This document shows, piece after piece, positions 1-11,244 of a DNA stretch of 11,244 bases (position 1 is the first letter of the stretch; every line of letters starts with the position of its first letter). Both the position numbers and the translations under genes were made by a program. The stretch comes from a virus. The notes beneath the pieces are model-generated. The model made no database searches and was not told where the DNA came from. It saw nothing but the letters and a program-made list of their open reading frames with translations. Location of the stretch: the UHGV virus genome UHGV-0101776; one strand, 5' to 3'.

Positions 1-22
1 TAAAGCTGAAAGCTTTCCGGAA

Positions 23-46
23 CCCCCAGCCTAGCTGGGGGTTTTC
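23..46 (+). terminator. Putative rho-independent terminator
   Basis: Perfect 8-bp stem cccccagc/gctggggg with a 3-nt loop (23-41), followed by tttt on the plus strand. Likely ends a plus-strand transcript from outside the window. Confidence 0.45.
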
Positions 47-56
47 TGTGCACAAT

Positions 57-96
57 AAAAAGGCCTGCGATTACCAGCAGGCCTTTATCTTTTTTT
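57..96. terminator. Bidirectional rho-independent terminator at the 3' end of the HNH gene
   Basis: 8-bp stem aggcctgc/gcaggcct (61-84) with an 8-nt loop. It is flanked by an A-run (57-60, a T-run on the minus strand) and by ttatcttttttt (85-96) on the plus strand. The hairpin sits immediately after the minus-strand stop at 85-87. Confidence 0.55.
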
Positions 97-696
97 AACA
101 CGCTTTCGAGTCCTTTTAGATTTTTCCTTAAGATATTCCGCAAGTTTATCCTCATCATTATTAAATTGAGATAAAAGCTCATGCTCGCAATTAAGTGCTT
201 TACTCGCATAAGTTCCATATAGTTTCTTTCTTGCTAGTGCTGCTATGAATGCTGCATCTTCTTTGCTATCGAAATACCCTAACGATATTGTCTTATTTTT
301 ATAACCAACATAAGACTTCCACCTGCCAGTTGTCTTATCCCAAGACACTCCAATCGCACCGGATGTGTTTAACCTATTCCCTACAATGTTTCTTGCATTC
401 TGCTCCTCTGTTGCCAGTCTTAGATTTGAAATCCTATTGTCAAGTCTGTTCCCATTTACATGATCAATAAACTTAGGAGGCCATTTTTTGTATACATAGA
501 ACCAAGCAAGTCTATGCGCATAATACAAAACATTATTTATGCTAATGCATATATAACCACCACTAACACCTCCAGCAATACTACCTTTTACTCTTACTAC
601 TGAATTTGTTTTTAGCCATTTAAATATTCCTGTTTCTGAGTCATATGATAATGTTGACAGAAGCTCATCGTGATCAATTAGTTTTTTTATTCGCAT
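85..696 (-). CDS. HNH homing endonuclease with AP2-type DNA-binding domain
   Basis: 203-aa ORF. HNH motif IDHVNGNRLDNRISNLRLATEEQNARN, followed by an AP2-like segment GVSWDKTTGRWKSYVGYKNKTISLGYFDSKEDAAFIAALARKKLYG. Visibly AT-rich compared with the adjacent helicase gene. No obvious SD before the ATG at 696. Confidence 0.8.
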   Translation of the reverse strand: MRIKKLIDHDELLSTLSYDSETGIFKWLKTNSVVRVKGSIAGGVSGGYICISINNVLYYAHRLAWFYVYKKWPPKFIDHVNGNRLDNRISNLRLATEEQNARNIVGNRLNTSGAIGVSWDKTTGRWKSYVGYKNKTISLGYFDSKEDAAFIAALARKKLYGTYASKALNCEHELLSQFNNDEDKLAEYLKEKSKRTRKRVKKR

Positions 697-778
697 AAAG
701 AATATACTTAATAATATATACAGTAAGAACCATTAGTAACGATAACCCTGCTATCAGCTCAGTGATGTAGATGGTCAT
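674..778 (-). CDS. Small hydrophobic peptide (34 aa), possibly translationally coupled to the helicase
   Basis: The ATG overlaps the helicase TGA stop (TGATG) and is preceded by a strong SD, AAAGGAGG, 7 nt upstream. Product MTIYITELIAGLSLLMVLTVYIIKYILYANKKTN has a single predicted TM helix. Overlaps the HNH start by 23 nt. Below the ORF-track size cutoff. Confidence 0.3.
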   Translation of the reverse strand: MTIYITELIAGLSLLMVLTVYIIKYILYANKKTN

Positions 779-2214
779 CAGAATCCTCCTTTCTTCTTGG
801 ATTGCGGTTCCTCGCGTTCACGGCGGCGCATTTCAGCGGACTGTTGGTCTGTGTCATAAATAGCGCCATTTGCCTGAATGCAATACACCGTGCCGGTATT
901 GCCATGACGATTGAGACGAAGGATTAGTTCGGTTTCACCAGGTGGAACACTGTCATCAAAAGCACCTTCACGATGGATCCCCACCCAATAATCGCAATCC
1001 TGTTCAATCTGCCCTGTATCTCGTGAGTCACTTGGTAATGGGCGTTTATTGGTTCTGCTTTCCAGTGCGCGGTTAAGCTGCGTCAGAAGCACAACAACGC
1101 AATCAAGCTCTTTGGCAAGGTTCTTCAGTCCTTTGGTGATCATGCCGTAAGCAAGGTCGTTGCGATCGGCCTTCTCAGCAGTCATTAGTGTCAGGTAATC
1201 GACCAGAATCATGCCAACACATCCTTTTTCTCGCTTGATTCGACGACTTTCGCTGACGATTTGAGCCAGAGATAATCCCGGCGTGTCGTCGATGTAAAGC
1301 AGGTCGATTTCACTCAAGCGATTGGCTGTTTCGATCGCCCTGTTGAAGTCACCATCGTAATCACCCTGATAGCCGTCATCAGCGTCATTTGTCGCCGGAA
1401 GGTAAAAAATATTCGGGTTAACACCTGACTTCTGTCCTACCAGTTTTTCCAGTATCTGGTCACCGGGCATTTCAAGGCTGAACATCAGAGCGGGCTTTTT
1501 CTCATGCACTGCGCAGTTGATTGCCATCTGGCTGTATAGCGTCGTTTTCCCCATCTTAGGGCGAGCGCCAATGACAAACAGAGAGCCTTTCACCAGACCT
1601 TTCGGTGACAGCATCCTGTCCAGCGATGGGATCCCTGTGCTCATTCCTCGTTGTTCGCCTGACGGGTCAAATCGCTTCTCAAGGTCGCTAACCCAGTCTT
1701 CCATGACCTCACCAAATGAGCGAAGGCCGCGACGCGATCCGGTTTTTGCATGGTCTGTCAGTTGCGTAAAAATCGCCTGAATAGCTTCGTACTTCTGCGT
1801 CGCAGTCATTCCGTTGCGGGAATAGAGCAATTCCGTCGCTTCAGTCATGCGGTTGATGGCGTAGCGTTCCATTGCGGTTTCACGAACCTGCATTGCATAG
1901 GCAACGATGTTTGCTGCGCTTGGCGTGTTCTTTGCGATCTCAGCGATATAAGCAAAACCGCCAACAGACGCCGTTAACGATTTACGCTCCAGTTCATCGA
2001 AAAGCGTCAGGCCATCTACTGGCTTTTGCTCCCGGTGCATTCTGGTTATTTCTTCGAAAAGGATTTTGTGTGGTCGGCTGTAAAATGAATCAGGCTTCAG
2101 CATCGCCAGAACTTTCTGGACGCGCTCACTGCTGTCATCATCCAGAAGCAATCCACCAATCACCGCCTGCTCTGCCTCGATGCTATGGGGCGGCGCATAA
2201 AAATTATCGGTCAT
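778..2214 (-). CDS. DnaB-family replicative DNA helicase (phage P22 gene 12-type)
   Basis: Walker A GARPKMGKTTL, Walker B-like ILVDYLTLM and the DnaB-like LLTQLNR motif. The ATG at 2214 overlaps the upstream initiator stop (ATGACCGATAA) with GAGG upstream. The ORF track's longer form starts at a GTG at 2229; the ATG is preferred. Confidence 0.88.
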   Translation of the reverse strand: MTDNFYAPPHSIEAEQAVIGGLLLDDDSSERVQKVLAMLKPDSFYSRPHKILFEEITRMHREQKPVDGLTLFDELERKSLTASVGGFAYIAEIAKNTPSAANIVAYAMQVRETAMERYAINRMTEATELLYSRNGMTATQKYEAIQAIFTQLTDHAKTGSRRGLRSFGEVMEDWVSDLEKRFDPSGEQRGMSTGIPSLDRMLSPKGLVKGSLFVIGARPKMGKTTLYSQMAINCAVHEKKPALMFSLEMPGDQILEKLVGQKSGVNPNIFYLPATNDADDGYQGDYDGDFNRAIETANRLSEIDLLYIDDTPGLSLAQIVSESRRIKREKGCVGMILVDYLTLMTAEKADRNDLAYGMITKGLKNLAKELDCVVVLLTQLNRALESRTNKRPLPSDSRDTGQIEQDCDYWVGIHREGAFDDSVPPGETELILRLNRHGNTGTVYCIQANGAIYDTDQQSAEMRRREREEPQSKKKGGF

Positions 2215-3094
2215 CGTGTTCACCCTCACGAACTTTCAGGTAGGTATTATCGTTAAGCAGGAAATCAAATCCCTTTTTGTGCCAGACGGTTCCGCGTTGA
2301 TGGTTTGGGCGCTCTTCGAACATCCATCGGCAATTTTCGCCAACGTAGCTCAAATAATTTCTCCAGTCCTGCATCGTGAACCCATGCCCGTCAAGTTGGC
2401 GTGTTATTACTCCGGCTTTGCGCCAGAACGTTCGGATCTGGTTTTTACGCTTGTCATTCAGTGCGCGGATTCTTGGCGCTTCAGGAAGGATTTCGTGGTA
2501 AGCATCGACAACATCCTGACAGCTGACGGAAGGTTTTTTCTTGTCAGACTTTTTGTCTGCTGTGGCACTCTCTAATACGTCAGTATTAGAGATATTATTT
2601 ATATTATTGTTTATGGACAACCGTTGGACAACCGTTGGACAATCTCCGCTGAGAGCCGCGCCATTACTGGTGTTTGCGTTGGACAACCGTTGGACAACCG
2701 TTGGACAATTTTTTGCCTGAAAATCGTCATATTTAACGATTGTAAACAGGCTAAATTTCTTCCCCATCGAGCAAATATTAAGCATCCCTTTCGACTCAAA
2801 AGTCCGTAATAAGCTCCGAACTTTGTTGTCGGGGATGAATGTTTCTCTGACCAGCGACGGGCGTCCAGTTATCATCTGACCGCGATCAACAGTTATCGGC
2901 CCGATATCCGTATTGACGACAGTAGATTCGTGATTAGCCTTGAGGATTAAGTGAAGCCAAAGATGTACTGCCTGAGAGTCCTTATAGAGCCTGCTGTCCA
3001 TAAACTGGCGGTGTATAGAGACATACCCCATACTGGATGCCTCCTGATGTTGTACAGGGTTATGCCTGTAATCAGCTAACTTAACGACGCCCAT
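2204..3094 (-). CDS. Phage replication initiator (lambda O-like role), origin embedded in the gene
   Basis: 296-aa ORF directly upstream of, and overlapping, the helicase gene. Strong SD AGGAG 6 nt before the ATG at 3094. Iteron repeats lie inside the central part of the gene (translated as the repeated CPTVVQRLS), the same arrangement as lambda O/ori. Conserved-looking C-terminal domain (TFWRKAG...GTVWHKKGFDFLLNDNTYLKV). Confidence 0.75.
   Translation of the reverse strand: MGVVKLADYRHNPVQHQEASSMGYVSIHRQFMDSRLYKDSQAVHLWLHLILKANHESTVVNTDIGPITVDRGQMITGRPSLVRETFIPDNKVRSLLRTFESKGMLNICSMGKKFSLFTIVKYDDFQAKNCPTVVQRLSNANTSNGAALSGDCPTVVQRLSINNNINNISNTDVLESATADKKSDKKKPSVSCQDVVDAYHEILPEAPRIRALNDKRKNQIRTFWRKAGVITRQLDGHGFTMQDWRNYLSYVGENCRWMFEERPNHQRGTVWHKKGFDFLLNDNTYLKVREGEHDDR
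2585..2708. repeat. Replication-origin iterons plus adjacent AT-rich region
   Basis: Six copies of GGACAA at 11-bp spacing (unit GGACAACCGTT) in two clusters of three, 2615-2642 and 2681-2708. The clusters are 66 bp apart (6 x 11), so all copies are in helical phase. An AT-rich stretch at 2585-2614 flanks them on the side downstream in gene orientation. Confidence 0.75.
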
Positions 3095-3242
3095 GCTTCA
3101 CTCCTGCTTTGGCTAGTCTGTAAACACCAACAAGGCGCTCTGCGAACGCCCTGTTATTTGCTGCGGCTACCACTAATCCCTCAGGTGAATCAGGGTGTCG
3201 AATCTCTTCTTTTTCCTGGTATTTCTTACGACGTTTTGTCAT
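3078..3242 (-). CDS. Small basic hypothetical protein (54 aa) between cII and the initiator gene
   Basis: ATG at 3242 preceded by AGGAG (spacing 6). Product MTKRRKKYQEKEEIRHPDSPEGLVVAAANNRAFAERLVGVYRLAKAGVKHGRR. The stop overlaps the initiator start by 17 nt. Not in the ORF track (under 60 aa). Confidence 0.4.
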
Positions 3243-3253
3243 AATTACTCCTG

Positions 3254-3330
3254 TGGATTGATCCAGTAATTCCCTCAGAATTGCATATCAATTTGCTTAG
3301 AGTCCCCGGCGGCCACCGGGGATTTTTTCT
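3254..3330 (+). ncRNA. oop: oop-like antisense RNA overlapping the cII 3' end, with intrinsic terminator
   Basis: The segment gatccagtaat...cctcagaa... ends in the hairpin ccccgg-cggcca-ccgggg plus attttttcttt (3305-3330). It closely resembles my recollection of lambda oop RNA in sequence, length (about 77 nt) and position antisense to the cII 3' end. CATAAT at 3240-3245 is a candidate -10 for Po. Confidence 0.6.
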
Positions 3331-3571
3331 TTGTGATTCCATCAAGCGCATACTTAAAAGCCCTACTAATCGGACTGATGTCTGATGCCATTCCGAAAGC
3401 ACACAAGACTGAAGCAATAAATCTCCAGTCCGTTCTGCTTATCTTCGATTCATGACAGCCAATCATCTTTGCCAGACCGCGCTGGGTAAGCGTTGACAGG
3501 TTGATGAGTAAATCTGTTTCTGCGCGATCAACGTCACGCTGGGATAGTTTGCTGTAACTTGTTTGTTCCAT
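3275..3571 (-). CDS. cII: CII-like transcriptional activator
   Basis: 98 aa, with clear similarity to lambda CII in the HTH and C-terminal parts (...KISRTDW...KKKSPVAAGDSKQIDMQF versus lambda ...QISRWKRDW...KKRPAATERSEQIQMEF). Sits immediately downstream of cro and nutR. Confidence 0.85.
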   Translation of the reverse strand: MEQTSYSKLSQRDVDRAETDLLINLSTLTQRGLAKMIGCHESKISRTDWRFIASVLCAFGMASDISPISRAFKYALDGITKKKSPVAAGDSKQIDMQF

Positions 3572-3585
3572 TTCTTATGATTTCC
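3549..3585 (+). promoter_or_regulatory. Candidate PRE establishment promoter with CII-binding repeat
   Basis: TTGC-N6-TTGT at 3549-3562 on the plus strand, inside cII codons 3-7. This is the same position as the TTGC-N6-TTGC CII site of lambda PRE. A TATGAT -10-like hexamer lies at 3577-3582. Orientation would drive transcription antisense through cro into cI. Confidence 0.5.
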
Positions 3586-3656
3586 AATAGTGAATAGCTA
3601 GTTGAAAGGTATGCGTGGAAACGCATATGGCCTTGGTTGGTCAGATATTCTGGGAT

Positions 3657-3702
3657 TCGCTTTTCAGCGACGTAGGACGAATGTCCGTTGTTACAAAGAG
3701 CG
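3657..3702 (-). promoter_or_regulatory. nutR-like site (boxA plus boxB hairpin)
   Basis: On the minus-strand transcript just after the cro stop: boxA-like CGCTCTTTG (reverse complement of 3694-3702), then after about 23 nt the hairpin UCGCU-GAAA-AGCGA (reverse complement of 3657-3670), a 5-bp stem with a GNRA-type loop like lambda boxB. Confidence 0.5.
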
Positions 3703-3709
3703 GGGTTAC

Positions 3710-3943
3710 TTATGCTGCTGATGCTCTACGCGATACGAACACCAGATTTTCCTTTTTCACAGGTTTATAACCCGTGAAATTACGAGTGGCTTCTTCGATT
3801 GCATTCGCTTTATCTGGGGAAGCTCTTCGAAACCCATATGCAATCTGATCAAGATAGCCAACTGAAGTATTCGCTAATGCGGCGAGTCGCTTCCATTCCT
3901 CACTAGAAGCCTCTTTTCGCCAGCGTAGTAGTTCATTACTCAT
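3710..3943 (-). CDS. cro: Cro-like HTH repressor
   Basis: 77-aa ORF divergent from cI across the operator region, first gene of the operon containing cII. GGAGG SD 6 nt before the ATG. HTH-like segment WKRLAALANTSVGYLDQIAYG. Confidence 0.7.
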   Translation of the reverse strand: MSNELLRWRKEASSEEWKRLAALANTSVGYLDQIAYGFRRASPDKANAIEEATRNFTGYKPVKKENLVFVSRRASAA

Positions 3944-4056
3944 TAGTGCCTCCGTTTATCACACAGAGCAACTTTACCATTTTGATAAATAAACTGCAAT
4001 GGAGATTTATCAAAATGCGTATTTATCCATTTGCTAAATAGAGGGAGAATCGTGGG
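3944..4056. promoter_or_regulatory. OR operator region with divergent promoters (PR toward cro, PRM toward cI)
   Basis: Three ATTTATC-containing operator-like sites: reverse complement of 3973-3989 (TTTATCAAAATGGTAAA), 4006-4022 (TTTATCAAAATGCGTAT) and 4022-4038 (TTTATCCATTTGCTAAA). Candidate PR on the minus strand: -35 TTGCAG (reverse complement of 3994-3999), 17-bp spacer, -10 TAAAGT (reverse complement of 3971-3976). PRM was not confidently placed. Confidence 0.7.
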
Positions 4057-4761
4057 ATGGAAAACAAAGATATTCGCAAATCGAATCTGGCGTTTTTGCT
4101 AGATGAGCATAAAAAAATCGCGGGTAACACTAATGCAAGCTTTGCCGATAAGCTTGGAGTTAGCCCTTCTCAACTCACGCAAGTCTCCGGTGAAAAAAGC
4201 ACTCGAAACATAGGGGATAAACTAGCAAGAAAATTCGAAGCCGCACTTGGGTTACCTAATGGGTGGCTTGATTTGGTACATGATGTAACACCAATTGCAT
4301 CATGCTCAGATTCTTTAACTTTTGTCGGTCAGGTAAGAAAAGGGTTAGTGCGCGTGGTTGGTGAGGCAATTCTTGGTGTTGATGGTGCCATCGAGATGAC
4401 CGAAGAGCGCGATGGGTGGCTCAAGATTTATAGCGATGATCCAGATGCCTTTGGTCTTCGTGTGAAAGGAGACAGCATGTGGCCTAGAATAAAATCAGGA
4501 GAATATGTACTCATTGAGCCTAACACCAAAGTATTCCCGGGGGATGAGGTGTTTGTCAGAACCGTTGAAGGACACAACATGATCAAGATTCTTGGCTATG
4601 ACAGAGATGGAGAATACCAATTTACAAGCATCAACCAGGACCACAGGCCAATAACGTTACCTTATCATCAAGTAGCAAAGGTGGAGTATGTGGCTGGTAT
4701 TCTGAAGCAATCTCGTCATCTGGATGACATCGAGGCAAGGGAGTGGCTGAAAAGTTTGTGA
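4057..4761 (+). CDS. cI: CI-type prophage repressor (N-terminal HTH, C-terminal S24/LexA-like autopeptidase)
   Basis: 234 aa. N-terminal HTH region; C-terminal domain with the GDSMWP serine motif typical of LexA/CI self-cleaving repressors. SD GAGGGAG upstream. Divergent from cro. Confidence 0.88.
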   Translation: MENKDIRKSNLAFLLDEHKKIAGNTNASFADKLGVSPSQLTQVSGEKSTRNIGDKLARKFEAALGLPNGWLDLVHDVTPIASCSDSLTFVGQVRKGLVRVVGEAILGVDGAIEMTEERDGWLKIYSDDPDAFGLRVKGDSMWPRIKSGEYVLIEPNTKVFPGDEVFVRTVEGHNMIKILGYDRDGEYQFTSINQDHRPITLPYHQVAKVEYVAGILKQSRHLDDIEAREWLKSL

Positions 4762-4884
4762 CTTCAAGTACGCGACAAGCCCCGTCCTTCAGGGCGTGGA
4801 GGATGTCAAAATAACTTTAAATAACACACCACCAACATTTAACACATTGAATTAAAAAACCTACAATATTTGATGAGAGGCGTT

Positions 4885-5205
4885 ATGGAACCGGTCAAAA
4901 TTAAACCATCTGTGGATTATATTGAAACCTATGCGGACTTCGCTAGTTTTGCTCCACTACCGGGAGCGGAAAAAAATCTCATTTGTATACATTTTATCGC
5001 AAACAAGTCAATACCTGCGGTACTATCCCAAAATGATATACCAGATCAACCAGGTAGAGCGAATATGCAGATAGGCTCTGTAAATGAACTCAATCAGCAA
5101 TGCACTGTGATAATGCCAATGGCACAACTAAAGGCTCTTCAAGAGAATATAGTTCTTCTTTTCGAACAATTAGAGGCACAAAACTCTAATGGAGCGAAGT
5201 CGTAA
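4885..5205 (+). CDS. Hypothetical protein A of a two-gene moron in the rexA/rexB-equivalent slot
   Basis: ORF-track ORF 4870..5205. Preferred start is the ATG at 4885, with GAGG 5 nt upstream (alternative ATG at 4873). 107 aa with no recognisable motif. AT-rich. The stop overlaps the next start (TAATG). Confidence 0.5.
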   Translation: MEPVKIKPSVDYIETYADFASFAPLPGAEKNLICIHFIANKSIPAVLSQNDIPDQPGRANMQIGSVNELNQQCTVIMPMAQLKALQENIVLLFEQLEAQNSNGAKS

Positions 5206-5888
5206 TGCAACAACCGGAAGAAGTAGGTGATTTAACTATTACTTACAAAACATCAAGTATTGTTAAACCACTGCAAGTTTCCCTGAATAACGTTAATACT
5301 CGCGATTTCATGATGTTCATGGAAACAGCAAAAGGTAATCTGTTTTCTACGCCTATTTCCTCTTATTCACCAAAAAACATGGTGGATGATGCGACCAATT
5401 CCCAGCTAACTGCTACAATCGTAGATAAAGGAGGGGTTGCCGATTGTAAAGGACAATCTAATGTTATCCCACCGTACGAGGAAACTCCTATACAGGGAAC
5501 CGCAATGTCCGATTTGAGCAGAAACGAAATACAGGCACTTCTGAAGGCAAATAAAGCTGAAGTGGATGCAGTGGCCTCAAAAATGCAGGCTGATATGGCC
5601 AAATGGCGTGAACTAATGGCTTCAGATATAAAGGAGATGAAGCATTTAGTTGTTACTCAGCACGAACAAATCAACAGTCGTCTGGACATACAATCGAGTA
5701 GAATTGAGAGTGCCCTTGACTCCCAATCAAAAAAGATCGATGCAGCTCTTTCTGTTCAAGAGGCAAAGTTAGAAGGTAAGCTTAGTGATGTTAAGCTTGA
5801 TATAATCAAATGGGCCCTTGGCTTGCCAGCATTAGCATTTACTGTATATAAAATCTACGGATTGCTCTCTGGAGTCTCAACCCCCTAA
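5205..5888 (+). CDS. Hypothetical membrane-anchored coiled-coil protein B of the two-gene moron
   Basis: 227 aa. N-terminal globular part, a central heptad-like coiled-coil region (about residues 110-200) and a C-terminal hydrophobic helix IIKWALGLPALAFTVYKIYGLLSGV. Start overlaps the stop of protein A. Followed by an intrinsic terminator. Confidence 0.6.
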   Translation: MQQPEEVGDLTITYKTSSIVKPLQVSLNNVNTRDFMMFMETAKGNLFSTPISSYSPKNMVDDATNSQLTATIVDKGGVADCKGQSNVIPPYEETPIQGTAMSDLSRNEIQALLKANKAEVDAVASKMQADMAKWRELMASDIKEMKHLVVTQHEQINSRLDIQSSRIESALDSQSKKIDAALSVQEAKLEGKLSDVKLDIIKWALGLPALAFTVYKIYGLLSGVSTP

Positions 5889-5893
5889 TACAC

Positions 5894-5920
5894 ACCCGGC
5901 CTCAGTGCCGGGTTTTCTTT
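5894..5920 (+). terminator. Rho-independent terminator ending the cI-moron transcription unit
   Basis: Hairpin acccggc-ctcagt-gccgggt followed by tttcttt, immediately after the protein B stop and before OL. Confidence 0.7.
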
Positions 5921-6046
5921 GCCTCACGATCCCCACACCTAATAACACCATAACCAATTGTATTTGTTGAAAAATAAACAGATACAACTCACTAAAACGC
6001 GCAATTCTGATCCCCCTCAAGTCTCTTTATTCCTTCTGATAAATTC

Positions 6047-6145
6047 CTGCAATCAAATAAAAAACCATAATAATCAACAGGATATTTGAAAACTAAAACA
6101 ATTTATCATTTTGCTATTGCCATTAATTTATCATTTCGATAAAGT
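6047..6145 (+). promoter_or_regulatory. OL operator region with candidate PL promoter
   Basis: ATTTATC-containing operator-like sites at 6047-6054 (inverted), 6101-6116 (ATTTATCATTTTGCTA, near-identical to the OR site at 4021-4036) and the palindrome TTTATCATTTCGATAAA at 6127-6143. Candidate PL: -35 TTGCCA (6117-6122), 17-bp spacer, -10 TAAAGT (6140-6145). This is the same architecture as the candidate PR. Confidence 0.7.
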
Positions 6146-6191
6146 TAACTCATCAGCAGGACGCTGTAAGCCAAACGGAACAGACTGGCAG

Positions 6192-6237
6192 GCTCTTTAA
6201 ACAACGTCGAACACTCGACTACGTGGCTGAAAAGCCA
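6192..6237 (+). promoter_or_regulatory. nutL-like site (boxA plus boxB hairpin)
   Basis: boxA-like GCTCTTTAA at 6192-6200 and, about 23 nt downstream, the hairpin UGGCU-GAAA-AGCCA (6224-6237). The architecture and boxA-boxB spacing match the nutR candidate. Confidence 0.55.
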
Positions 6238-6260
6238 GATCACCCAACCACATAAGCTGT

Positions 6261-6313
6261 GGGATGCAATGCCGAAGCAACTCTCTCAGGAGTAGCTTCG
6301 GGATTGCATCGCC
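6261..6313 (+). promoter_or_regulatory. Long imperfect hairpin in the N leader (candidate RNase III processing or translation-control element)
   Basis: Arms gggatgcaatgccgaagc (6261-6278) and gcttcgggattgcatcgcc (6295-6313) pair over about 17 bp with one mismatch and one bulge, enclosing a 16-nt loop. Located between nutL and the N SD (GGGAGG at 6325-6330). Confidence 0.45.
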
Positions 6314-6335
6314 AGAGTTTATTCGGGAGGAATCC

Positions 6336-6608
6336 ATGTCCAGAAAAACAGAATTTAAAGGAACCGCAGCTTCTCGCCGTAGAGAGCGTCGCGCAAATCT
6401 GCAAAGTCAGGAGGCGATCAGCTCCGACAAGCTACACAGGCCAACCCCTTCACGAGTGGTCTTGCAATGCAAGCGCAAACCAGCAATGAGAGCAGAAGTG
6501 ATAACTCTGACAACGTTGACCAGAAAATATGAAGGTTCAACTTGTCTTCCGAACGTAGCTCTTTACGCGGCAGGCTACCGGAAATCAAAACAACTGACGG
6601 CGAGATGA
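6336..6608 (+). CDS. N: N-like transcription antitermination protein
   Basis: 90 aa. N-terminal arginine-rich motif ASRRRERRANLQ, matching the RRRERRA of the lambda N ARM. Positioned downstream of PL/nutL with a leader of about 185 nt. The ORF-track frame 6264..6608 extends upstream; the ATG at 6336 has the SD. Confidence 0.7.
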   Translation: MSRKTEFKGTAASRRRERRANLQSQEAISSDKLHRPTPSRVVLQCKRKPAMRAEVITLTTLTRKYEGSTCLPNVALYAAGYRKSKQLTAR

Positions 6609-6624
6609 TAAATTCATTTGCTAA

Positions 6625-7206
6625 TTACTTGTTTTTGCCATGCTTATCCTGAGCGATAAGTTCATCCATAAGGCTGTCTGCCTTCCCGGCAAACCGAATG
6701 TAGCACTCATTTCTATAGCGTTCCGGGATAACAAAACGGTCGATTTCAGGATATCCAGTAGCAGAAGGTATCCGAATAAGAAGCCCTTTTTCGAGCAATG
6801 AGATTGCTTCAGGGCTTCCCTTTTCTGTCTTTAGCTGGTTATTCGCGGCTACAGCGAATGCCAAATACGCTCTTTCTCCAAGAGTTAACGAATCAAACAA
6901 ATCTTGCACATATTTTTCTTCTTTAGATTTGCGCTTCTGAGCAGCGGATACCTCAATTCTTTCAGTCACAGCGTGATAAGCGGAATTAACAACACCGTTA
7001 AGCACATAGCTAACGCAGAACAACAGGATGTAATACATCCAATAATAAGGAAGGATTTCTGGATTATGCAGGTTTATCCATTCTTTTACGCTTACCGGCA
7101 TAACAATAATCAATATGATCAGGATGATTAGCATATGAATCAACTGTTTAAGTGTCATTCCTTGCAGGAAAAAATGCATTAGTTCCTGCCACCATGAGTT
7201 GTTCAT
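6625..7206 (-). CDS. sieB: Superinfection exclusion protein B (SieB-like) membrane protein
   Basis: 193 aa with two N-terminal hydrophobic helices (LIHMLIILIILIIVMPV, YYWMYYILLFCVSYVL). Transcribed opposite to N, in the same relative position as lambda sieB. Identity is from recollection of the family. Confidence 0.65.
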   Translation of the reverse strand: MNNSWWQELMHFFLQGMTLKQLIHMLIILIILIIVMPVSVKEWINLHNPEILPYYWMYYILLFCVSYVLNGVVNSAYHAVTERIEVSAAQKRKSKEEKYVQDLFDSLTLGERAYLAFAVAANNQLKTEKGSPEAISLLEKGLLIRIPSATGYPEIDRFVIPERYRNECYIRFAGKADSLMDELIAQDKHGKNK

Positions 7207-7349
7207 CGGCGTTTCTCTTTTGCTCTCTGTAGGGGTGAATAGAGTTTATCCGATTTCTCGCTGTAGGGGTACACGAGAACCACCGAGCCTGATGTGGTTA
7301 AAAGACAGGCACAATCTTTACTACCGCAATCCACTATTTAAGGTGATAT

Positions 7350-7436
7350 ATGGAAGAAGAATTTGAAGAGTTCGAAGAGCATCCTCAGGATGTGATGGAA
7401 CAATACCAGGACTATCCGTATGACTACGACTATTGA
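7350..7436 (+). CDS. Small acidic ORF (28 aa)
   Basis: Product MEEEFEEFEEHPQDVMEQYQDYPYDYDY. SD-like AAGGTGA 6 nt upstream. Overlaps the ral start by 17 nt. Possibly equivalent to the small ORF annotated near ral in lambda (uncertain). Confidence 0.4.
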   Translation: MEEEFEEFEEHPQDVMEQYQDYPYDYDY

Positions 7437-7620
7437 TAAAAATCAATGGTGTGGACAATTCAAGCGATGCAATGGATGCAAGCTGCAATCGGAATGCATG
7501 GTTAAGCCTGAAGAAATGTTTCCTGTAATGGAAGATGGGAAATATGTCGATAAATGGGCAATACGAACGACGGCAATGATTGCCAGAGAACTTGGTAAAC
7601 AGAACAACAAGGCTGCCTAA
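7420..7620 (+). CDS. ral: Ral-like restriction alleviation protein
   Basis: 66 aa, MTTTIDKNQWCGQFKRCNGCKLQSECMVKPEEMFPVMEDGKYVDKWAIRTTAMIARELGKQNNKAA. Matches my recollection of lambda Ral in length and sequence. Sits in the PL operon between N/sieB and cIII. Confidence 0.6.
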   Translation: MTTTIDKNQWCGQFKRCNGCKLQSECMVKPEEMFPVMEDGKYVDKWAIRTTAMIARELGKQNNKAA

Positions 7621-7756
7621 TGGTGGCCTTTATTTTTGGCATAAACAACAGAATAAACACTGCACTGTGTATTCATTCCAACGAGTGAATACACGGAGCA
7701 ATGTCGCTCGTAACTAAACAGGAGCCGACTTGTTCTGATTATTGGAAATCTTCTTT

Positions 7757-7782
7757 GCCCTCCAATGTGAGGGCTTTTTTAT
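7757..7782 (+). terminator. Rho-independent terminator between ral and cIII
   Basis: Hairpin gccctc-caatgt-gagggc followed by ttttttat. Genes downstream would need N-mediated antitermination. Confidence 0.7.
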
Positions 7783-7842
7783 ATGCATACCAATAACGCT
7801 TCATTCGAGGCGTTTTCGTTATGTATAAATAAGGAGCACACC

Positions 7843-7983
7843 ATGCAATATGCCATTGCAGGGTGGCCTGTTGCTGGCTGCCCTTCCGAATCTTTACTTG
7901 AACGAATCACACGTAAATTACGTGATGGATGGAAACGCCTTATCGACATACTTAATCAGCCAGGAGTTCCCAAAAATGGATAA
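7843..7983 (+). CDS. cIII: CIII (inhibitor of FtsH-mediated CII degradation)
   Basis: 46 aa, MQYAIAGWPVAGCPSESLLERITRKLRDGWKRLIDILNQPGVPKNG. Essentially identical to my recollection of lambda CIII over this length, but lacking the last 8 residues. AAGGAG SD 6 nt upstream. The ORF-track ORF 7783..7983 includes a spurious N-terminal extension. Confidence 0.85.
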   Translation: MQYAIAGWPVAGCPSESLLERITRKLRDGWKRLIDILNQPGVPKNG

Positions 7984-8089
7984 AACACTTATGGCTATCC
8001 AGACTAAATTCACTATCGCCACTTTTATTGGCGATGAAAAGATGTTTCGTGAAGCCGTAGAAGCCTACAGAAAATGGAGGTCAAAATGA
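7976..8089 (+). CDS. Small protein overlapping the cIII 3' end, Kil-like by position
   Basis: 37 aa, MDKTLMAIQTKFTIATFIGDEKMFREAVEAYRKWRSK. The start overlaps the cIII stop, as lambda kil does. The sequence resembles my uncertain recollection of the lambda Kil N-terminus. Confidence 0.4.
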   Translation: MDKTLMAIQTKFTIATFIGDEKMFREAVEAYRKWRSK

Positions 8090-8274
8090 TTCCGGTAGAA
8101 CTGGCGAAAACTCCAGAGTTAAGTCGATTAAAAAGAGAATATCACATTGCTGAGGCTCGTTACTGGCGTAAAGCGGGAGATAAATCAAAGAAACAACTTT
8201 GTTTATGGCAGGCGCAAAGAGAGCGCATGAATGAGCGCGAATTTCTTTCCTGCCCATCCGAATTACCATTCTGA
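8086..8274 (+). CDS. Hypothetical protein (62 aa)
   Basis: ORF-track ORF 8074..8274. The ATG at 8086 is preceded by GGAGG; the alternative start at 8074 has no SD. No recognisable motif. Confidence 0.45.
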   Translation: MIPVELAKTPELSRLKREYHIAEARYWRKAGDKSKKQLCLWQAQRERMNEREFLSCPSELPF

Positions 8275-8282
8275 GGCAAATT

Positions 8283-8963
8283 ATGGGAACTGCGACATTA
8301 ATACTCGGTGAATCTGGCACCGGAAAATCAACCAGCATGAGAAATATCAATCCAGAGGAAGCAATACTTATAAAACCAATAGGCAAGCCGCTACCATTTA
8401 AATCAAAAGACTGGCTTGCATGGGATGCCAGAGCAAAAAAAGGAACCGTAGTTACCACTGACAAATGGGACGTAATAGTTGCTGCAATTAAGCGTGCTCA
8501 CGAATACGGAAAAAGAATCGTTATTGTTGATGACTTCCAGTATGTGATGAGCAATGAGTTTATGCGCCGCTCAGAAGAAAAATCGTTTGATAAATTTACT
8601 GAGATAGGCCGCCACGCATGGGAGGTGATTAAGGCTGCACAGGATGCACCTGATGACCTGAGAGTCTATTTTCTTGCACATACCGAAGAAACCCCTATGG
8701 GGCGCGTGAAAATGAAAACTATCGGCAAAATGCTGGACGAGAAAATCACTGTCGAAGGCATGTTTACTATAGTTCTTCGCACTCTTACCCGCGATGACCA
8801 GTTCTTTTTCACCACGAAAAACAACGGTGCAGACACTGTCAAATCCCCAATGGGAATGTTTGATTCCAATGAGATTGATAACGATCTCTCTTTCGTCGAT
8901 GCCACTGTTTGTGATTACTACGGCATCAATAATGTTCATCAAATTAAGGAAAACGCCGCATGA
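8283..8963 (+). CDS. P-loop NTPase, possibly a Sak4-like core-only RecA-type recombination ATPase
   Basis: 226 aa. Walker A GESGTGKST at residues 9-17 and Walker B-like RIVIVDDFQ. Size and motif layout are typical of phage AAA_24/Sak4-type ATPases. GAGG SD upstream. Confidence 0.75.
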   Translation: MGTATLILGESGTGKSTSMRNINPEEAILIKPIGKPLPFKSKDWLAWDARAKKGTVVTTDKWDVIVAAIKRAHEYGKRIVIVDDFQYVMSNEFMRRSEEKSFDKFTEIGRHAWEVIKAAQDAPDDLRVYFLAHTEETPMGRVKMKTIGKMLDEKITVEGMFTIVLRTLTRDDQFFFTTKNNGADTVKSPMGMFDSNEIDNDLSFVDATVCDYYGINNVHQIKENAA

Positions 8964-9547
8964 GCAACGTGATTTTTACTTATAACGAAGAAGCAGCACT
9001 GACCGCAGGGCAAGGTGGTTTTATTAACGAAACTGGCGCCCATATCATTACCATTACTGAAGCAGAACTAAAGCAATCAGAAAAAGGAGCCAAATTTATT
9101 GAGTTTTCTGGAGAATCCGACGACGGCCGTAAAATCCAATATCTTAGCGTCTGTGTTCAGAAAAATGACGGAACGGAAAACAAATTTGGCGCAAATGTCG
9201 TTCACGCCATGATGGGGTGTGCCGGGATTGGACAATTAACGCAGCATATGGTTTCCGCCAGTAAATTTGTTGCACCTGAATTTCATGGAAAGAAAATCGG
9301 GTTAGTGCTCCAGAAAGTATTAACCACAAACAAAAAGACTGGCGCAGACAGCTACCAGATGGAAATACGCATCCCGTTTATTGCACAAACAGGTCAAACC
9401 CTTAAAGAAAAGGCAGAAGGCAAGCAACCAGAAACTATCGCCGACATGGTTGCCAGCCTCAAAGATAAAGACAATCGCTCTAAAAACGTAAGCCAGAATC
9501 ATGCAGATGATTATGGTTACAGCCAGAACGATTACCCTGCTTTCTGA
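8960..9547 (+). CDS. Hypothetical protein, possibly the ssDNA-binding partner of the ATPase
   Basis: 195 aa. Start overlaps the ATPase stop (ATGA). C-terminal acidic/aromatic tail ...HADDYGYSQNDYPAF resembles SSB-type partner-interaction tails. Assignment is by inference only. Confidence 0.6.
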   Translation: MSNVIFTYNEEAALTAGQGGFINETGAHIITITEAELKQSEKGAKFIEFSGESDDGRKIQYLSVCVQKNDGTENKFGANVVHAMMGCAGIGQLTQHMVSASKFVAPEFHGKKIGLVLQKVLTTNKKTGADSYQMEIRIPFIAQTGQTLKEKAEGKQPETIADMVASLKDKDNRSKNVSQNHADDYGYSQNDYPAF

Positions 9548-9570
9548 TTACTGAAAATAAGGCTCCCATT

Positions 9571-9867
9571 ATGCCAGCGCCTCTGTATGGTGCGGATGAC
9601 CCGCGCAACTGCTCCGGTAGCTCCAAGGCGGAGGTGCTGGAGAATATCAAAAACAATTTCGACGCGTTTCTTGCTCTGACACCAGAAACAAAAGCAGAAC
9701 GGATGTACCGACGCGATATACAACTCGCGCTAAAACAGGAGAAGGACCGAACAAACGAAACAGCAATGAGACCGTTGCGAAAAGCGACAATAGACAAATT
9801 CCCTGAATATATCGACCCGCGCCTGCGTAATTACCGCTCACGCTATGGCGCTATCAGTAATGACTGA
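9571..9867 (+). CDS. Hypothetical protein (98 aa)
   Basis: Intact ORF co-oriented in the PL operon. AAGG upstream of the ATG. No recognisable motif. Confidence 0.5.
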
Positions 9868-9877
9868 GGAATTTACC

Positions 9878-10042
9878 ATGAGAGGACTTGCATACAATCC
9901 CGGCATTCTTCCGGCAGAAATGATTATTCGCCAACGCGTAAAGCCAATGCCATCGAGAGAGGAATTGCTTAAGAGAAATTCTTTTCCGTCAGTGAATCAA
10001 AACAAATATCTGAATGCGATGTTGCGGAGTGGGAAGAAATGA
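9878..10042 (+). CDS. Hypothetical small protein (54 aa)
   Basis: ATG at 9878 preceded by GAGGA (spacing 7). The ORF-track ORF 9845..10042 starts upstream without an SD. Stop overlaps the next start (ATGA). Confidence 0.4.
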
Positions 10043-10578
10043 AACAAATGTCACTAATTGAGATGGATGGATTCCTGAAAGGTAAATGCATCCCAAGCGA
10101 TTTAAAGGTTAACGAAACAAACGCTGAATATCTGGTGCGTAAATTTGCTGAAGCGGAGGCCAAGTGCGCGGCGCTGGCGGCGGAGAGTGCGCTGGCTCGT
10201 AAGGCAGTTCAGGCATTCTGCGATGTTGTTGGCGACAACACCGAGGTTATCTGTGAGGCGGTTGGGAGAGATGGCGTTCTGGTTATTTTGGAGGCCATGA
10301 AGGCAACAGGAAATATGCCAGCCACCGATGCTTTCCTGGCTGAAGTGAAGACTGAAGCACGCAAGGAGGGCGCTTACTTTGTGGCGAACAGAATGCTGGC
10401 TGCCTGGGAAGCTGGTTTTATTGATGATACTGCGAAGAACGCCGCGGATATTGCCCGGATGATTCTTACCTCTACTGAGTTTATGGCTAATGCGCCGGAA
10501 GGCGATTTTGACCGCTCATTCTCTGATGGCGTTCTCGAAGATATCGCCGCCCAGCTTCGCAAAGGAGGCAACCAGTGA
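10039..10578 (+). CDS. Hypothetical protein (179 aa)
   Basis: Intact ORF whose start overlaps the previous stop. Ala-rich, with a predicted helical N-terminal region. No recognisable motif. Confidence 0.6.
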
Positions 10579-11244
10579 GCAACATTAACTATCAGGTACT
10601 GCGTGAGGCGGCAGAGAAAGCAACTAAAGGAAGCTACATCGTAGGGCATACATCTGTTAACCAGCACGGCAATTTAACAGGAGTTTTTGTTTGCCAAAAA
10701 TGGAAAGGAGAACCCGGTGGCGTGATTGCAGAATGTCATGTTAACTGCCTGATTGAAACAGATGCTCAGGCTTATGCAAACGCTGAATTCATAGCAGAGG
10801 CTAACCCGGCTACCGTGCTGGCACTACTGGATGAACGGGAAAGAAACCAGCAATACATCAAATCCCGCAACCAGGAGAACGAGGATATTGCGCTAACGGT
10901 AGGGAAGCTGCGCGTTGAGCTGGAAGGCAAAGACAGCAAAATAGCCAATCTTACCGCCGAACGCGATGCTCTTCGTGAAGGTGAGATGGGCGACGCTAGG
11001 CATAGCAACACACGGGCCGCAGCTGATATCTACTTCCAACTGGTCGAGGAGTGCGAAATTCCTGCTGGCGGTTCTCTGGTCGAGTACGTTGACGATATGC
11101 GCGAGAAGCTGGAAGCCGCAGAGAGGCGCATAGCAGAACTGGAAGCACGGGAAATAAAACCAGCCAAAGGCGAAGTTCTTGTCGTTGTATCTGGTTTTAC
11201 TGGTTGCGGAAAAAGCGCCATTGCCGGGGAAATAGAAATCGCGA
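10575..11244 (+). CDS. Ead/Ea22-like protein, 5' partial (runs off the window end), GTG start
   Basis: GTG at 10575 overlaps the upstream TGA (GTGA) and is preceded by AGGAGG (spacing 6). The frame is open to the end of the window, so the ORF track (apparently ATG/TTG starts only) missed it. The translation [28 protein letters not shown]... continues into a coiled-coil-like region, recalling Ead/Ea22-family prophage proteins. Confidence 0.5.
   Translation, partial: MSNINYQVLREAAEKATKGSYIVGHTSVNQHGNLTGVFVCQKWKGEPGGVIAECHVNCLIETDAQAYANAEFIAEANPATVLALLDERERNQQYIKSRNQENEDIALTVGKLRVELEGKDSKIANLTAERDALREGEMGDARHSNTRAAADIYFQLVEECEIPAGGSLVEYVDDMREKLEAAERRIAELEAREIKPAKGEVLVVVSGFTGCGKSAIAGEIEIA

What the first reader, a model, noticed from the sequence alone, without database searches (positions are those of the whole stretch)
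3944..6145. Shared operator/promoter grammar at OR and OL
OR (3944-4056) and OL (6047-6145) each carry three ATTTATC-containing sites, including a near-identical 16-mer in both regions and a clean palindrome TTTATCATTTCGATAAA in OL. The candidate PR and PL both read TTGC(A/C)N-17-TAAAGT with an operator inside the spacer. This defines a putative immunity specificity different from lambda.
Basis: seen in the sequence. Interest (0 to 1): 0.4.

Follow-up and report, generated by a model that had tools for sequence, protein, structure and literature searches.

The report
H-19B-type phage immunity operators
The repeated TTTATC…GATAAA motifs are real repressor-binding sites flanking the repressor gene of a lambda-like prophage, but they belong to the immunity type of Shiga-toxin phage H-19B, which was described and annotated years ago, so the finding is correct and ordinary.

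Summary
The 17-bp sites TTTATC-N5-GATAAA cluster in the cro/cI gap (OR) and 2.1 kb away upstream of N (OL). Both early promoters read TTGCnn-17-TAAAGT, with a site covering the spacer and the first 4 nt of the -10. Small corrections: OR has four sites, not three. The stated OL range holds only two ATTTATC sites. The conserved third OL site is ATAATCAACAGGATATT (6070-6086).

The interpretation (CI/Cro operators, non-lambda specificity) is supported. It is not new. Window 3235-4766 is 95.8% identical to phage H-19B and the CI DNA-binding domain is 100% identical. The same module occurs in BP-4795, ST2-8624, many Stx1a phages and 213 of 5426 complete E. coli genomes. GenBank GQ499358.1 already annotates OR0-OR3 and OL1-OL3, and a 2021 review credits H-19B's four OR sites to Shi & Friedman 2001.

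Added here: relatives in Pantoea, Klebsiella and IMG/VR (49-65% identical CI domain) keep the same site geometry. The Pantoea and Klebsiella ones use a TTTAGC/GCTAAA variant. Half-site columns are far more conserved than the rest (p=1.3e-5). This supports an OR2 register of 4006-4022 and a probable leaderless PRM. Novelty: already known. Interest: low.

The parts
3710..3943 (-). cro (77 aa), an all-alpha XRE/YdaS-like helix-turn-helix protein
   Evidence: ORF. 75 of 77 residues identical to H-19B Cro. phrog_35, E=5e-7. AlphaFold model with pLDDT 88.7; best fold match is YdaS 8co2, TM 0.68.
3955..3971 (.). OR0, TTTATCACACAGAGCAA: a fourth OR site over the PR start region and cro leader, found only in the H-19B type
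   Evidence: 10 of 12 half-site matches. Annotated 'OR0 repressor binding site' in GQ499358.1. The left half is conserved in 19 of 20 alleles and the right half varies. Absent in the Pantoea and Klebsiella relatives.
3973..3989 (.). OR1, TTTACCATTTTGATAAA: overlaps the PR spacer and the first 4 nt of its -10
   Evidence: 11 of 12 matches. No half-site column varies among 20 alleles. Conserved as TTTAGC..GCTAAA or TTTATC..GATAAA in relatives. Annotated in GQ499358.1.
3971..3999 (-). PR: -35 TTGCAG (3999-3994), 17-bp spacer, -10 TAAAGT (3976-3971); drives cro, cII and the replication genes
   Evidence: The TTG of the -35 and TAAA(G/C)T of the -10 are conserved in relatives. The start site near 3964 is inferred.
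4006..4022 (.). OR2 in the register proposed here, TTTATCAAAATGCGTAT: perfect left half, degenerate right half; centre about -43 from the cI ATG
   Evidence: The left half changes TTTATC to TTTAGC in the Pantoea and Klebsiella relatives, as their other sites do, and stays TTTATC in L061 and L066/L067. GC(G/A)TAT is conserved. GenBank records place OR2 at 3998-4014 (GQ499358.1) or 4001-4017 (KU238070.1), so the register is unsettled.
4022..4038 (.). OR3, TTTATCCATTTGCTAAA: overlaps the predicted PRM -35 and spacer
   Evidence: 11 of 12 matches to the strict palindrome, 12 of 12 to TTTAKC-N5-GMTAAA. Near invariant in all relatives. Annotated in GQ499358.1.
4022..4050 (+). Predicted PRM: -35 TTTATC, 17 bp, -10 GAGAAT (4045-4050), 6 nt, then the A of the cI ATG at 4057. 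This implies a leaderless cI mRNA.
   Evidence: Inference only. The same geometry (TTTATC, 17 bp, rArAAT or GAGCAT, 6 nt, ATG) is seen in window, H-19B, Pantoea, Klebsiella Chronis, L061 and L066. The start site has not been mapped.
4057..4761 (+). cI repressor (234 aa): H-19B-type DNA-binding domain plus a 933W/H-19B-type S24 autocleavage domain
   Evidence: Peptidase_S24 E=4e-16. Residues 1-93 are 100% identical to the CI of ST2-8624, AU5Stx1 and many Stx1a-phage records and to H-19B CI. Residues 81-233 are 94% identical to 933W CI.
5894..5913 (+). Intrinsic-terminator-like hairpin with a T-run that ends the cI-cargo transcription unit, just upstream of OL
   Evidence: It lies at the start of the 5893-6164 block that is 88% identical to H-19B.
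6070..6086 (.). OL3, ATAATCAACAGGATATT: a weak site whose AATC-N5-GAT core is conserved
   Evidence: Aligns with the 'OL3 repressor binding site' of GQ499358.1. The AATC-N5-GATATT core is invariant in all H-19B-type OL alleles. Pantoea and Klebsiella have TAAATC-N5-GCTAAA at the same position.
6102..6118 (.). OL2, TTTATCATTTTGCTATT: its last 2 nt overlap the PL -35
   Evidence: Invariant in all H-19B-type alleles and nearly invariant in relatives. Annotated in GQ499358.1.
6127..6143 (.). OL1, the perfect palindrome TTTATCATTTCGATAAA: covers the PL spacer and the first 4 nt of the -10
   Evidence: 12 of 12 matches. Half-sites are invariant while the centre varies (ATTTC, ATTCC, ACTCC, ATTCA) across alleles.
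6117..6145 (+). PL: TTGCCA, 17 bp, TAAAGT; drives N and the leftward operon
   Evidence: Conserved as TTGCCA/TTGCTA/TTGACC, 17 bp, TAAA(G/T)T in relatives.
6194..6219 (+). nutL-like element: boxA-like GCTCTTTAA (6194-6202) followed by the hairpin GTCGA-ACAC-TCGAC (6206-6219)
   Evidence: Read from the sequence. The hairpin appears. Its function is inferred from its position between PL and N.
6336..6608 (+). N antiterminator (90 aa, arginine-rich N-terminus), not the H-19B N type
   Evidence: PF25694, E=1e-32. phrog_271, E=2.5e-25. Only 6543-6608 matches H-19B.
6027..6043 (.). Extra operator-like site TTATTCCTTCTGATAAA; status uncertain
   Evidence: 10 of 12 matches. Present in window-type alleles, but H-19B-type alleles carry a different sequence there.

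Best explanation
This is the immunity region of a lambdoid prophage of the H-19B immunity group.

The operators. CI (4057-4761) and Cro (3710-3943) are helix-turn-helix proteins. They recognise 17-bp pseudo-palindromes TTTA(T/G)C-N5-G(A/C)TAAA. There are four at OR (OR0 3955-3971, OR1 3973-3989, OR2 4006-4022, OR3 4022-4038) and three at OL (OL1 6127-6143, OL2 6102-6118, OL3 6070-6086).

Repression of the early promoters. OR1 and OL1 cover the spacer and the first four bases of the -10 of PR and PL (both TTGCnn-17-TAAAGT). Repressor bound there blocks RNA polymerase and silences cro/cII/replication and N. OR0 adds a block at the PR start.

Control of cI (inferred). OR2 is centred about 43 bp upstream of the cI ATG. 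That is the position from which lambda CI activates PRM. OR3 overlaps the predicted PRM -35 and spacer and would shut off cI at high repressor levels. The predicted PRM (TTTATC-17-GAGAAT-6-ATG) would give a leaderless cI mRNA.

Induction (inferred). Cleavage of CI through its S24 domain, driven by RecA, frees PR and PL.

Shown versus inferred. Shown here: sequence identity to H-19B, non-random clustering of sites, promoter geometry and cross-genus conservation. Inferred: actual binding, site affinities, activation from OR2 and transcription start points.
For: Identity with H-19B:
- Window 3235-4766 is 95.8% identical to H-19B AF034975, and 5893-6164 is 88% identical.
- CI residues 1-93 are 100% identical to the CI of ST2-8624, AU5Stx1 and many Stx1a-phage records, and to H-19B CI.
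- The whole CI is 232 of 234 identical to H-19B and Cro is 75 of 77 identical.
- OR differs from H-19B at 11 of 113 positions. None falls in an OR1-OR3 half-site.

Prior annotation and literature:
- GenBank GQ499358.1, labelled 'immunity region; similar to bacteriophage H19-B', annotates OR0-OR3 and OL1-OL3. All but OR2 fall on the coordinates given here.
- A review states that H-19B has four operator sites in OR, citing Shi & Friedman 2001 (PMC8065619).

Statistics.

Gene context.

Comparative evidence:
- CI-domain relatives at 49-65% identity in Pantoea, Klebsiella phage Chronis and IMG/VR contigs keep OR1-33-OR2-16-OR3 (32 bp from OR1 to OR2 in L061) and OL3-32/33-OL2-25-OL1. Their half-sites are TTTAGC/GCTAAA or TTTATC/GATAAA, and their centres vary.
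- 24 of 35 half-site columns are invariant against 10 of 49 other columns (Fisher p=1.3e-5).

Cro fold: the model is an XRE/YdaS-like helix-turn-helix protein.
Against: - No binding data could be examined. Shi & Friedman 2001 and Tyler et al. 2004 are not in the held library.
- Within the near-identical H-19B-type alleles the conservation contrast is only suggestive: 3 of 35 half-site columns vary against 19 of 78 others (p=0.07).
- The OR2 register is disputed. Two GenBank records place it at 3998-4014 and 4001-4017. In the register used here, OR2 and OR3 share one base pair and their centres are 16 bp apart. That is awkward for two dimers binding at once.
- The right half of OR2 matches the consensus at only 3 of 6 positions.
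- Pfam does not recognise the CI N-terminal domain above threshold (HTH_3, E=0.005).
- The predicted PRM hexamers are weak, and the cI gene also has a Shine-Dalgarno sequence (AGAGGGAG).
Confidence: 0.9

Rival explanations
1. The region defines a new, previously unrecognised immunity specificity, which is what the first reader implied.
For: The operators differ from those of lambda and 933W. The 933W operators are 15 bp with different conserved positions. Pfam and NCBIfam have no model for this Cro.
Against: The CI DNA-binding domain is identical to H-19B's, and the half-sites of OR1-OR3, OL1 and OL2 are the same. At least 33 phage records and 213 E. coli genomes carry the module. The operators are already annotated in GenBank and cited in a review.
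Confidence: 0.03
2. The motifs are chance products of AT-rich intergenic DNA, or belong to promoter elements (-10-like TAAA, UP-like A/T tracts), and are not protein-binding operators.
For: Both regions are AT-rich. TAAA of the outer half-site is part of the -10 at PR and PL. TTTATC also occurs 17 times elsewhere in the window.
Against: Local dinucleotide shuffles almost never give the observed number of sites. Half-sites are conserved and centres vary across genera. In the Pantoea and Klebsiella relatives, most half-sites of both operators change together from TTTATC to TTTAGC. OL3, OR2 and OR3 do not overlap the PR or PL hexamers.
Confidence: 0.02
3. The operators are real, but OR2 lies at 3998-4014 as annotated in GQ499358.1. 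That gives lambda-like spacings of 25 and 24 bp. The TTTATC at 4006-4011 would then sit off-centre inside that site.
For: The deposited annotation may derive from footprints I could not read. It mirrors the 25-bp OL1-OL2 spacing and avoids overlap with OR3. That 17-mer would end 2 nt inside the PR -35, as OL2 does at PL.
Against: AATGGAGATTTATCAAA matches the consensus at about 4 of 12 half-site positions and lacks the G at position 12 that every other site has. Three of its 12 half-site columns vary among H-19B-type alleles. In the Pantoea and Klebsiella relatives the hexamer at 4006-4011 changes to TTTAGC, as their other half-sites do, and GC(G/A)TAT follows it at fixed distance. A second GenBank record uses yet another register.
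Confidence: 0.3

Closest known systems
Phage H-19B OR/OL and early promoters (Neely & Friedman 1998; Shi & Friedman 2001), also found in BP-4795, ST2-8624, AU5Stx1, mEp506 and many Stx1a phages
   Same: The CI DNA-binding domain is identical and Cro is 75 of 77 identical. There are four OR sites and three OL sites at the same positions, with the same half-sites at OR1-OR3, OL1 and OL2. The -10 hexamers of PR and PL are the same.
   Different: OR differs by 11 substitutions. Ten lie in spacers, site centres, the PR -35 (TTGCAG versus TTGCGG) and the cI leader; one is in the OR0 right half. OL3's half-site flank also differs (ATAATC versus AGAATC). Between cI and OL there are two different cargo ORFs, where BP-4795 and ST2-8624 carry other ORFs, one named a HigB-family toxin in the RefSeq annotations. 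N and nutL are of another type. Replication genes are P22-like (DnaB-type helicase) rather than lambda O/P.
Bacteriophage lambda OR/OL, CI and Cro switch
   Same: Divergent cI and cro, and 17-bp pseudo-palindromic operators. O1 overlaps the lytic promoter. A site sits about -42/-43 from the cI start. OL lies about 2 kb away in front of N. CI has an S24 autocleavage domain. There is a probable leaderless PRM, and a cII/PRE-like element.
   Different: The operator sequence differs (TTTATC-N5-GATAAA versus TATCACCGC-type). OR has four sites. Centre spacings are 18/33/16 bp at OR and 25/32 bp at OL, against about 24/23 in lambda (from memory). Cro is predicted to be all-alpha and XRE-like, unlike lambda Cro (from memory). 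The CI C-terminal domain is of the 933W type, which is reported to be non-cooperative.
Phage 933W repressor and operators (Koudelka and Friedman laboratories)
   Same: CI residues 81-233 are 94% identical, covering the oligomerisation and autocleavage domain. The overall layout of the immunity region is the same.
   Different: The N-terminal domain does not align. The 933W operators are 15 bp with different conserved bases. 933W OL has only two sites.
Unnamed relatives: Klebsiella phage vB_Kpn_Chronis, Pantoea prophages, IMG/VR contigs L061 and L066
   Same: The site geometry at OR and OL is the same, the promoters have the same grammar, and the Cro proteins are homologous.
   Different: The CI domain is only 49-65% identical (Chronis 52%). 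The half-site is mostly TTTAGC/GCTAAA in the Pantoea and Klebsiella relatives. There is no OR0. The Pantoea and Chronis CI proteins have an unrelated C-terminal domain sequence.

Membership tests
H-19B immunity group | CI N-terminal DNA-binding domain identical or nearly identical to H-19B CI | tested here: met
   Residues 1-93 are 100% identical in 34 phage records, including ST2-8624. The full CI is 232 of 234 identical to H-19B.
H-19B immunity group | Cro of the same type | tested here: met
   75 of 77 residues identical to H-19B Cro. The differences are N25K and A48R.
H-19B immunity group | The same operator half-sites at OR0-OR3 and OL1-OL3 | tested here: met
   The half-sites of OR1, OR2, OR3, OL1 and OL2 are identical. 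There is one substitution in the OR0 right half, and the flank of OL3 differs (ATAATC versus AGAATC). The coordinates agree with GQ499358.1 except for the OR2 register.
H-19B immunity group | Functional homoimmunity: an H-19B lysogen excludes this phage and the reverse | not testable with these tools
   This needs plating or reporter assays.
Lambda-type CI/Cro bistable switch | Divergent cI and cro genes separated by a multi-site operator that contains PR and PRM | tested here: met
   PRM is inferred only.
Lambda-type CI/Cro bistable switch | Repressor with a LexA-like S24 autocleavage domain | tested here: met
   PF00717, E=4e-16.
Lambda-type CI/Cro bistable switch | A second operator, OL, that controls PL and N about 2 kb from OR | tested here: met
   
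Lambda-type CI/Cro bistable switch | Three sites per operator at about 23-24 bp centre spacing, which support pairwise cooperative binding | tested here: not met
   OR has four sites with centres 18, 33 and 16 bp apart. OL centres are 25 and 32 bp apart. Cooperativity itself cannot be tested here. The C-terminal domain is shared with 933W CI, which is reported to be non-cooperative.
Lambda-type CI/Cro bistable switch | CI and Cro bind the same sites with opposite preference | not testable with these tools
   This needs footprinting or EMSA.
933W immunity group | 933W-type CI DNA-binding domain and 15-bp operators | tested here: not met
   Only residues 81-233 align with 933W CI. At the DNA level only window 4334-4761 matches. 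The 933W operators are 15 bp.

The most novel reading that the evidence does not exclude
The geometry is conserved across CI proteins that have unrelated C-terminal domains. OR1 lies 33 bp from OR2. OR2 and OR3 share one base pair, with centres 16 bp apart. OL1-OL2 and OL2-OL3 are 25 and 32/33 bp apart. This could define a switch architecture distinct from lambda's. In it, OR2 and OR3 would be occupied on opposite DNA faces or mutually exclusively, so that PRM activation and auto-repression form one competitive unit, and cI would be translated from a leaderless PRM mRNA. If Shi & Friedman 2001 did not already establish this, it would be a modest mechanistic addition covering a widespread Enterobacterales repressor family.
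Probability: 0.3. Interest if true: 0.35.

Novelty: already known. Interest (0 to 1): 0.15.

Why it matters
H-19B-type immunity controls induction of many Stx1-converting prophages. Recognising the module tells you which phages will be homoimmune with this prophage and how its lytic genes are kept silent. For this window it mainly serves as annotation, because the operators, PR, PL and the immunity type can be labelled by transfer from H-19B. The cross-genus comparison made here gives a sequence-based consensus, TTTA(T/G)C-N5-G(A/C)TAAA. It also provides an argument for resolving the conflicting OR2 annotations in GenBank. Neither result changes current understanding.

Tried and rejected
- One search used a mis-specified promoter pattern (too many N) and found nothing. 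One search corrected it.
- Shi & Friedman 2001 and Tyler et al. 2004 are not in the held library. The experimental site boundaries for H-19B could therefore not be compared. Literature searches gave only secondary statements.
- The scan of GTDB genomes with the CI domain returned only three Pantoea loci. IMG/VR gave 59.
- The within-group conservation test was weak (p=0.07 for OR1-OR3, and p=0.34 when OR0 is included). The cross-genus set was used instead.
- Pfam and NCBIfam give nothing for Cro. For the CI N-terminal domain Pfam gives only a sub-threshold HTH_3.
- The PDB sequence search gave spurious pseudoazurin hits to the CI C-terminal domain and only weak CI and Cro hits.
- The CII-site pattern TTGC-N6-TTGC is not enriched in the window. 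The single positional match at 3549-3562 is only suggestive.
- PADLOC and NCBIfam gave nothing convincing for the two cargo ORFs.
- No complete E. coli genome contains the whole window as one block; the best covers 62%. The source genome was not identified.
- The idea that the site at 6027-6043 is the third OL operator was rejected. It is not conserved in H-19B-type alleles, whereas 6070-6086 is.
Full report
**Observation**

The window carries a lambdoid early region.
- On the - strand: a DnaB-type helicase (778-2229), a replication protein (2204-3094), cII (3275-3571) and cro (3710-3943).
- On the + strand: cI (4057-4761, Peptidase_S24 E=4e-16), two cargo ORFs (4870-5205 and 5205-5888), a terminator-like hairpin (5894-5913) and an N antiterminator (6336-6608, PF25694 E=1e-32).
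- sieB follows on the - strand (6625-7206).

- TTTATC occurs 24 times in the window against 8.8 expected.
- The perfect palindrome TTTATCATTTCGATAAA is at 6127-6143.
- In local dinucleotide shuffles of OR, three sites with at least 10 of 12 half-site matches were never reached (0 of 2000). In 6020-6146, two such sites were reached in 3 of 2000 shuffles.
- The shared 16-mer is 14 of 16 identical: 4021-4036 versus 6101-6116.
- TTGC-N19-TAAAGT occurs exactly twice against 0.06 expected. It faces cro at 3999-3971 (- strand) and N at 6117-6145 (+ strand).

Three details need correction.
- OR has a fourth site, OR0 (3955-3971, GTTTATC).
- The stated OL range holds two ATTTATC sites, not three. The third TTTATC is the other arm of the palindrome.
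- O1 covers the first four bases of the -10 as well as the spacer.

**What it is**

- Megablast shows that the cro-OR-cI block is 96-97% identical to Stx phages BP-4795, ST2-8624, AU5Stx1 and many Stx1a phages, and to the lambdoid phage mEp506.
- Direct comparison with phage H-19B (AF034975) gives 95.8% identity over window 3235-4766 and 88% over 5893-6164.
- CI residues 1-93 are 100% identical in 34 phage records. The whole CI is 232 of 234 identical to H-19B and Cro is 75 of 77 identical.
- GenBank GQ499358.1, labelled 'immunity region; similar to bacteriophage H19-B', annotates OR0, OR1, OR2, OR3, OL1, OL2 and OL3 repressor binding sites. In window coordinates these are 3955-3971, 3973-3989, 3998-4014, 4022-4038, 6127-6143, 6102-6118 and 6070-6086.
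- KU238070.1 also annotates oR1-oR3, in a different register.
- A 2021 review states that H-19B has four operator sites in OR, citing Shi & Friedman 2001.
- Chen et al. 2005 cite Neely & Friedman 1998 for H-19B operator sequences.
- The module is common. 213 of 5426 complete E. coli genomes hold at least 80% of cII-cro-OR-cI. 51 IMG/VR contigs encode a 99-100% identical CI domain.

The finding is therefore the H-19B immunity type, correctly recognised from sequence alone but not new.

**Comparative test of the operator model**

CI-domain relatives were found at lower identity.
- 61-63% in three Pantoea genomes.
- 52% in Klebsiella phage Chronis.
- 49-65% in IMG/VR contigs.

These relatives keep the same layout.
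- At OR: OR1, then OR2 33 bp away (32 bp in L061), then OR3 16 bp further. This is followed by 17 bp, an rArAAT or GAGCAT hexamer, 6 nt and the cI ATG.
- At OL: OL3, then OL2 32-33 bp away, then OL1 25 bp further, embedded in TTGCCA-17-TAAA(G/T)T.

The Pantoea and Klebsiella versions mostly use TTTAGC-N5-GCTAAA. L061 and L066 keep TTTATC-N5-GATAAA. The 5-bp centres differ freely.

In an ungapped six-lineage comparison, 24 of 35 half-site columns are invariant against 10 of 49 other columns (Fisher p=1.3e-5).

Among 20 distinct H-19B-type OR alleles, substitutions fall mostly in spacers, site centres and the OR0 right half. The contrast is only suggestive there (p=0.07).

Across the H-19B-type OL alleles, the half-sites of OL1 and OL2 and the AATC-N5-GATATT core of OL3 are invariant. 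The centres vary.

**OR2 register**

The two GenBank records disagree, placing OR2 at 3998-4014 and 4001-4017. I place it at 4006-4022 (TTTATCAAAATGCGTAT) for three reasons.
- The left half is a perfect half-site. It changes to TTTAGC in the Pantoea and Klebsiella relatives, as their other sites do.
- Position 12 is G, as in every other site.
- GC(G/A)TAT is conserved at fixed distance.

The cost of this register is that OR2 and OR3 share one base pair and their centres are 16 bp apart. I rate the annotated alternative at about 0.3.

**Mechanism**

By analogy with lambda, and with H-19B as reviewed:
- CI at OR1 and OL1 occludes the -10 and spacer of PR and PL.
- OR0 sits over the PR start region.
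- OR2 is centred about -43 from the cI ATG, the activating position in lambda.
- OR3 overlaps the predicted PRM -35 and spacer.

The conserved hexamer-6-ATG geometry suggests a leaderless PRM mRNA. This is an inference and has not been mapped.

The CI C-terminal domain (residues 81-233) is 94% identical to 933W CI. Mauro & Koudelka 2011 note that the domain is shared with H-19B and that 933W CI binds non-cooperatively. The non-lambda spacings fit that picture. However, the Pantoea and Chronis relatives keep the same spacings with different C-terminal domains.

The Cro model is confident (pLDDT 88.7). It is an all-alpha XRE/YdaS-like helix-turn-helix protein (best match 8co2, TM 0.68; P22 c2 is also among the matches).

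**Comparison, novelty and verdict**

- Membership in the H-19B immunity group is met on every sequence criterion. Functional homoimmunity cannot be tested here.
- The region works like the lambda switch but fails the lambda spacing and site-number criterion.
- It is not 933W immunity. The N-terminal domain does not align and the 933W operators are 15 bp.
The feature is already known, so interest is low. The residual novelty lies in the family-wide conserved geometry and the OR2/PRM inference, which the unread 2001 paper may already cover.

Noticed in passing
window 4057-4761: cI is a domain mosaic. Residues 81-233 are 94% identical to 933W CI, while the N-terminal DNA-binding domain does not align. 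The DNA-level match to 933W-type phages begins at window 4334. The literature already notes that H-19B and 933W share this domain.
   Followed up: yes
window 4839-5888: Two cargo ORFs occupy the position that rexAB holds in lambda. They are 4870-5205 (no family hit) and 5205-5888 (phrog_14825, with a weak CCDC90-like coiled-coil match). They are preceded by the best sigma-70-like site of the region (TTAACA-17-TACAAT, 4839-4867). H-19B-type phages carry different genes here. There are no defence-system hits in PADLOC.
   Followed up: partly
window 6252-6325: A long, nearly perfect stem-loop lies in the N leader, just upstream of the N Shine-Dalgarno sequence (GGGATGCAATGCCGAAGC...GCTTCGGGATTGCATC). 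The 191-nt leader folds at -75.5 kcal/mol, z=-5.7. It is reminiscent of the RNase III-sensitive hairpin in the lambda N leader (from memory).
   Followed up: partly
window 7830-7888: Rfam Lambda_thermo, the cIII thermoregulator element, matches at 88.5 bits (E=5e-21). It is the only Rfam hit in the window.
   Followed up: no
window 3549-3562: TTGCTGTAACTTGT on the + strand overlaps the cII start codon region. It is a one-mismatch match to the lambda CII site TTGC-N6-TTGC, at the position expected for PRE. The pattern is not enriched in the window overall.
   Followed up: partly
window 6027-6043: An extra operator-like site, TTATTCCTTCTGATAAA (10 of 12), lies 43 bp beyond OL3. H-19B-type alleles instead carry TTTATCCTGTCGAATTC there, with the good half-site on the other side. 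It could be a variable fourth OL site or a chance match.
   Followed up: partly
L001 (KU238070.1) 3376-3441 and L003 (GQ499358.1) 15-98: Two GenBank records of the same phage (ST2-8624) annotate the OR operators in different registers. KU238070.1 is shifted by 2 bp at oR1 and oR3. OR2 is placed at three different positions when this analysis is included.
   Followed up: yes
L044 (IMGVR_UViG_651053023_000003), 116 nt upstream of cI: One IMG/VR allele carries G-to-A at the otherwise invariant position 12 of OR3 (ACTAAA), plus a change in the OR1 centre (ATCTT). These may be operator mutations in a decaying or derepressed prophage.
   Followed up: no
window 1-11244: No complete E. coli genome holds the whole window as one block (best 62% coverage). 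The window joins H-19B immunity to P22-like replication genes, a non-H-19B N, sieB and lambda-like cIII, which is typical lambdoid mosaicism. The mosaic joints fall at 3235, 4766, 5893 and 6164, so the last is just after the PL -10.
   Followed up: partly
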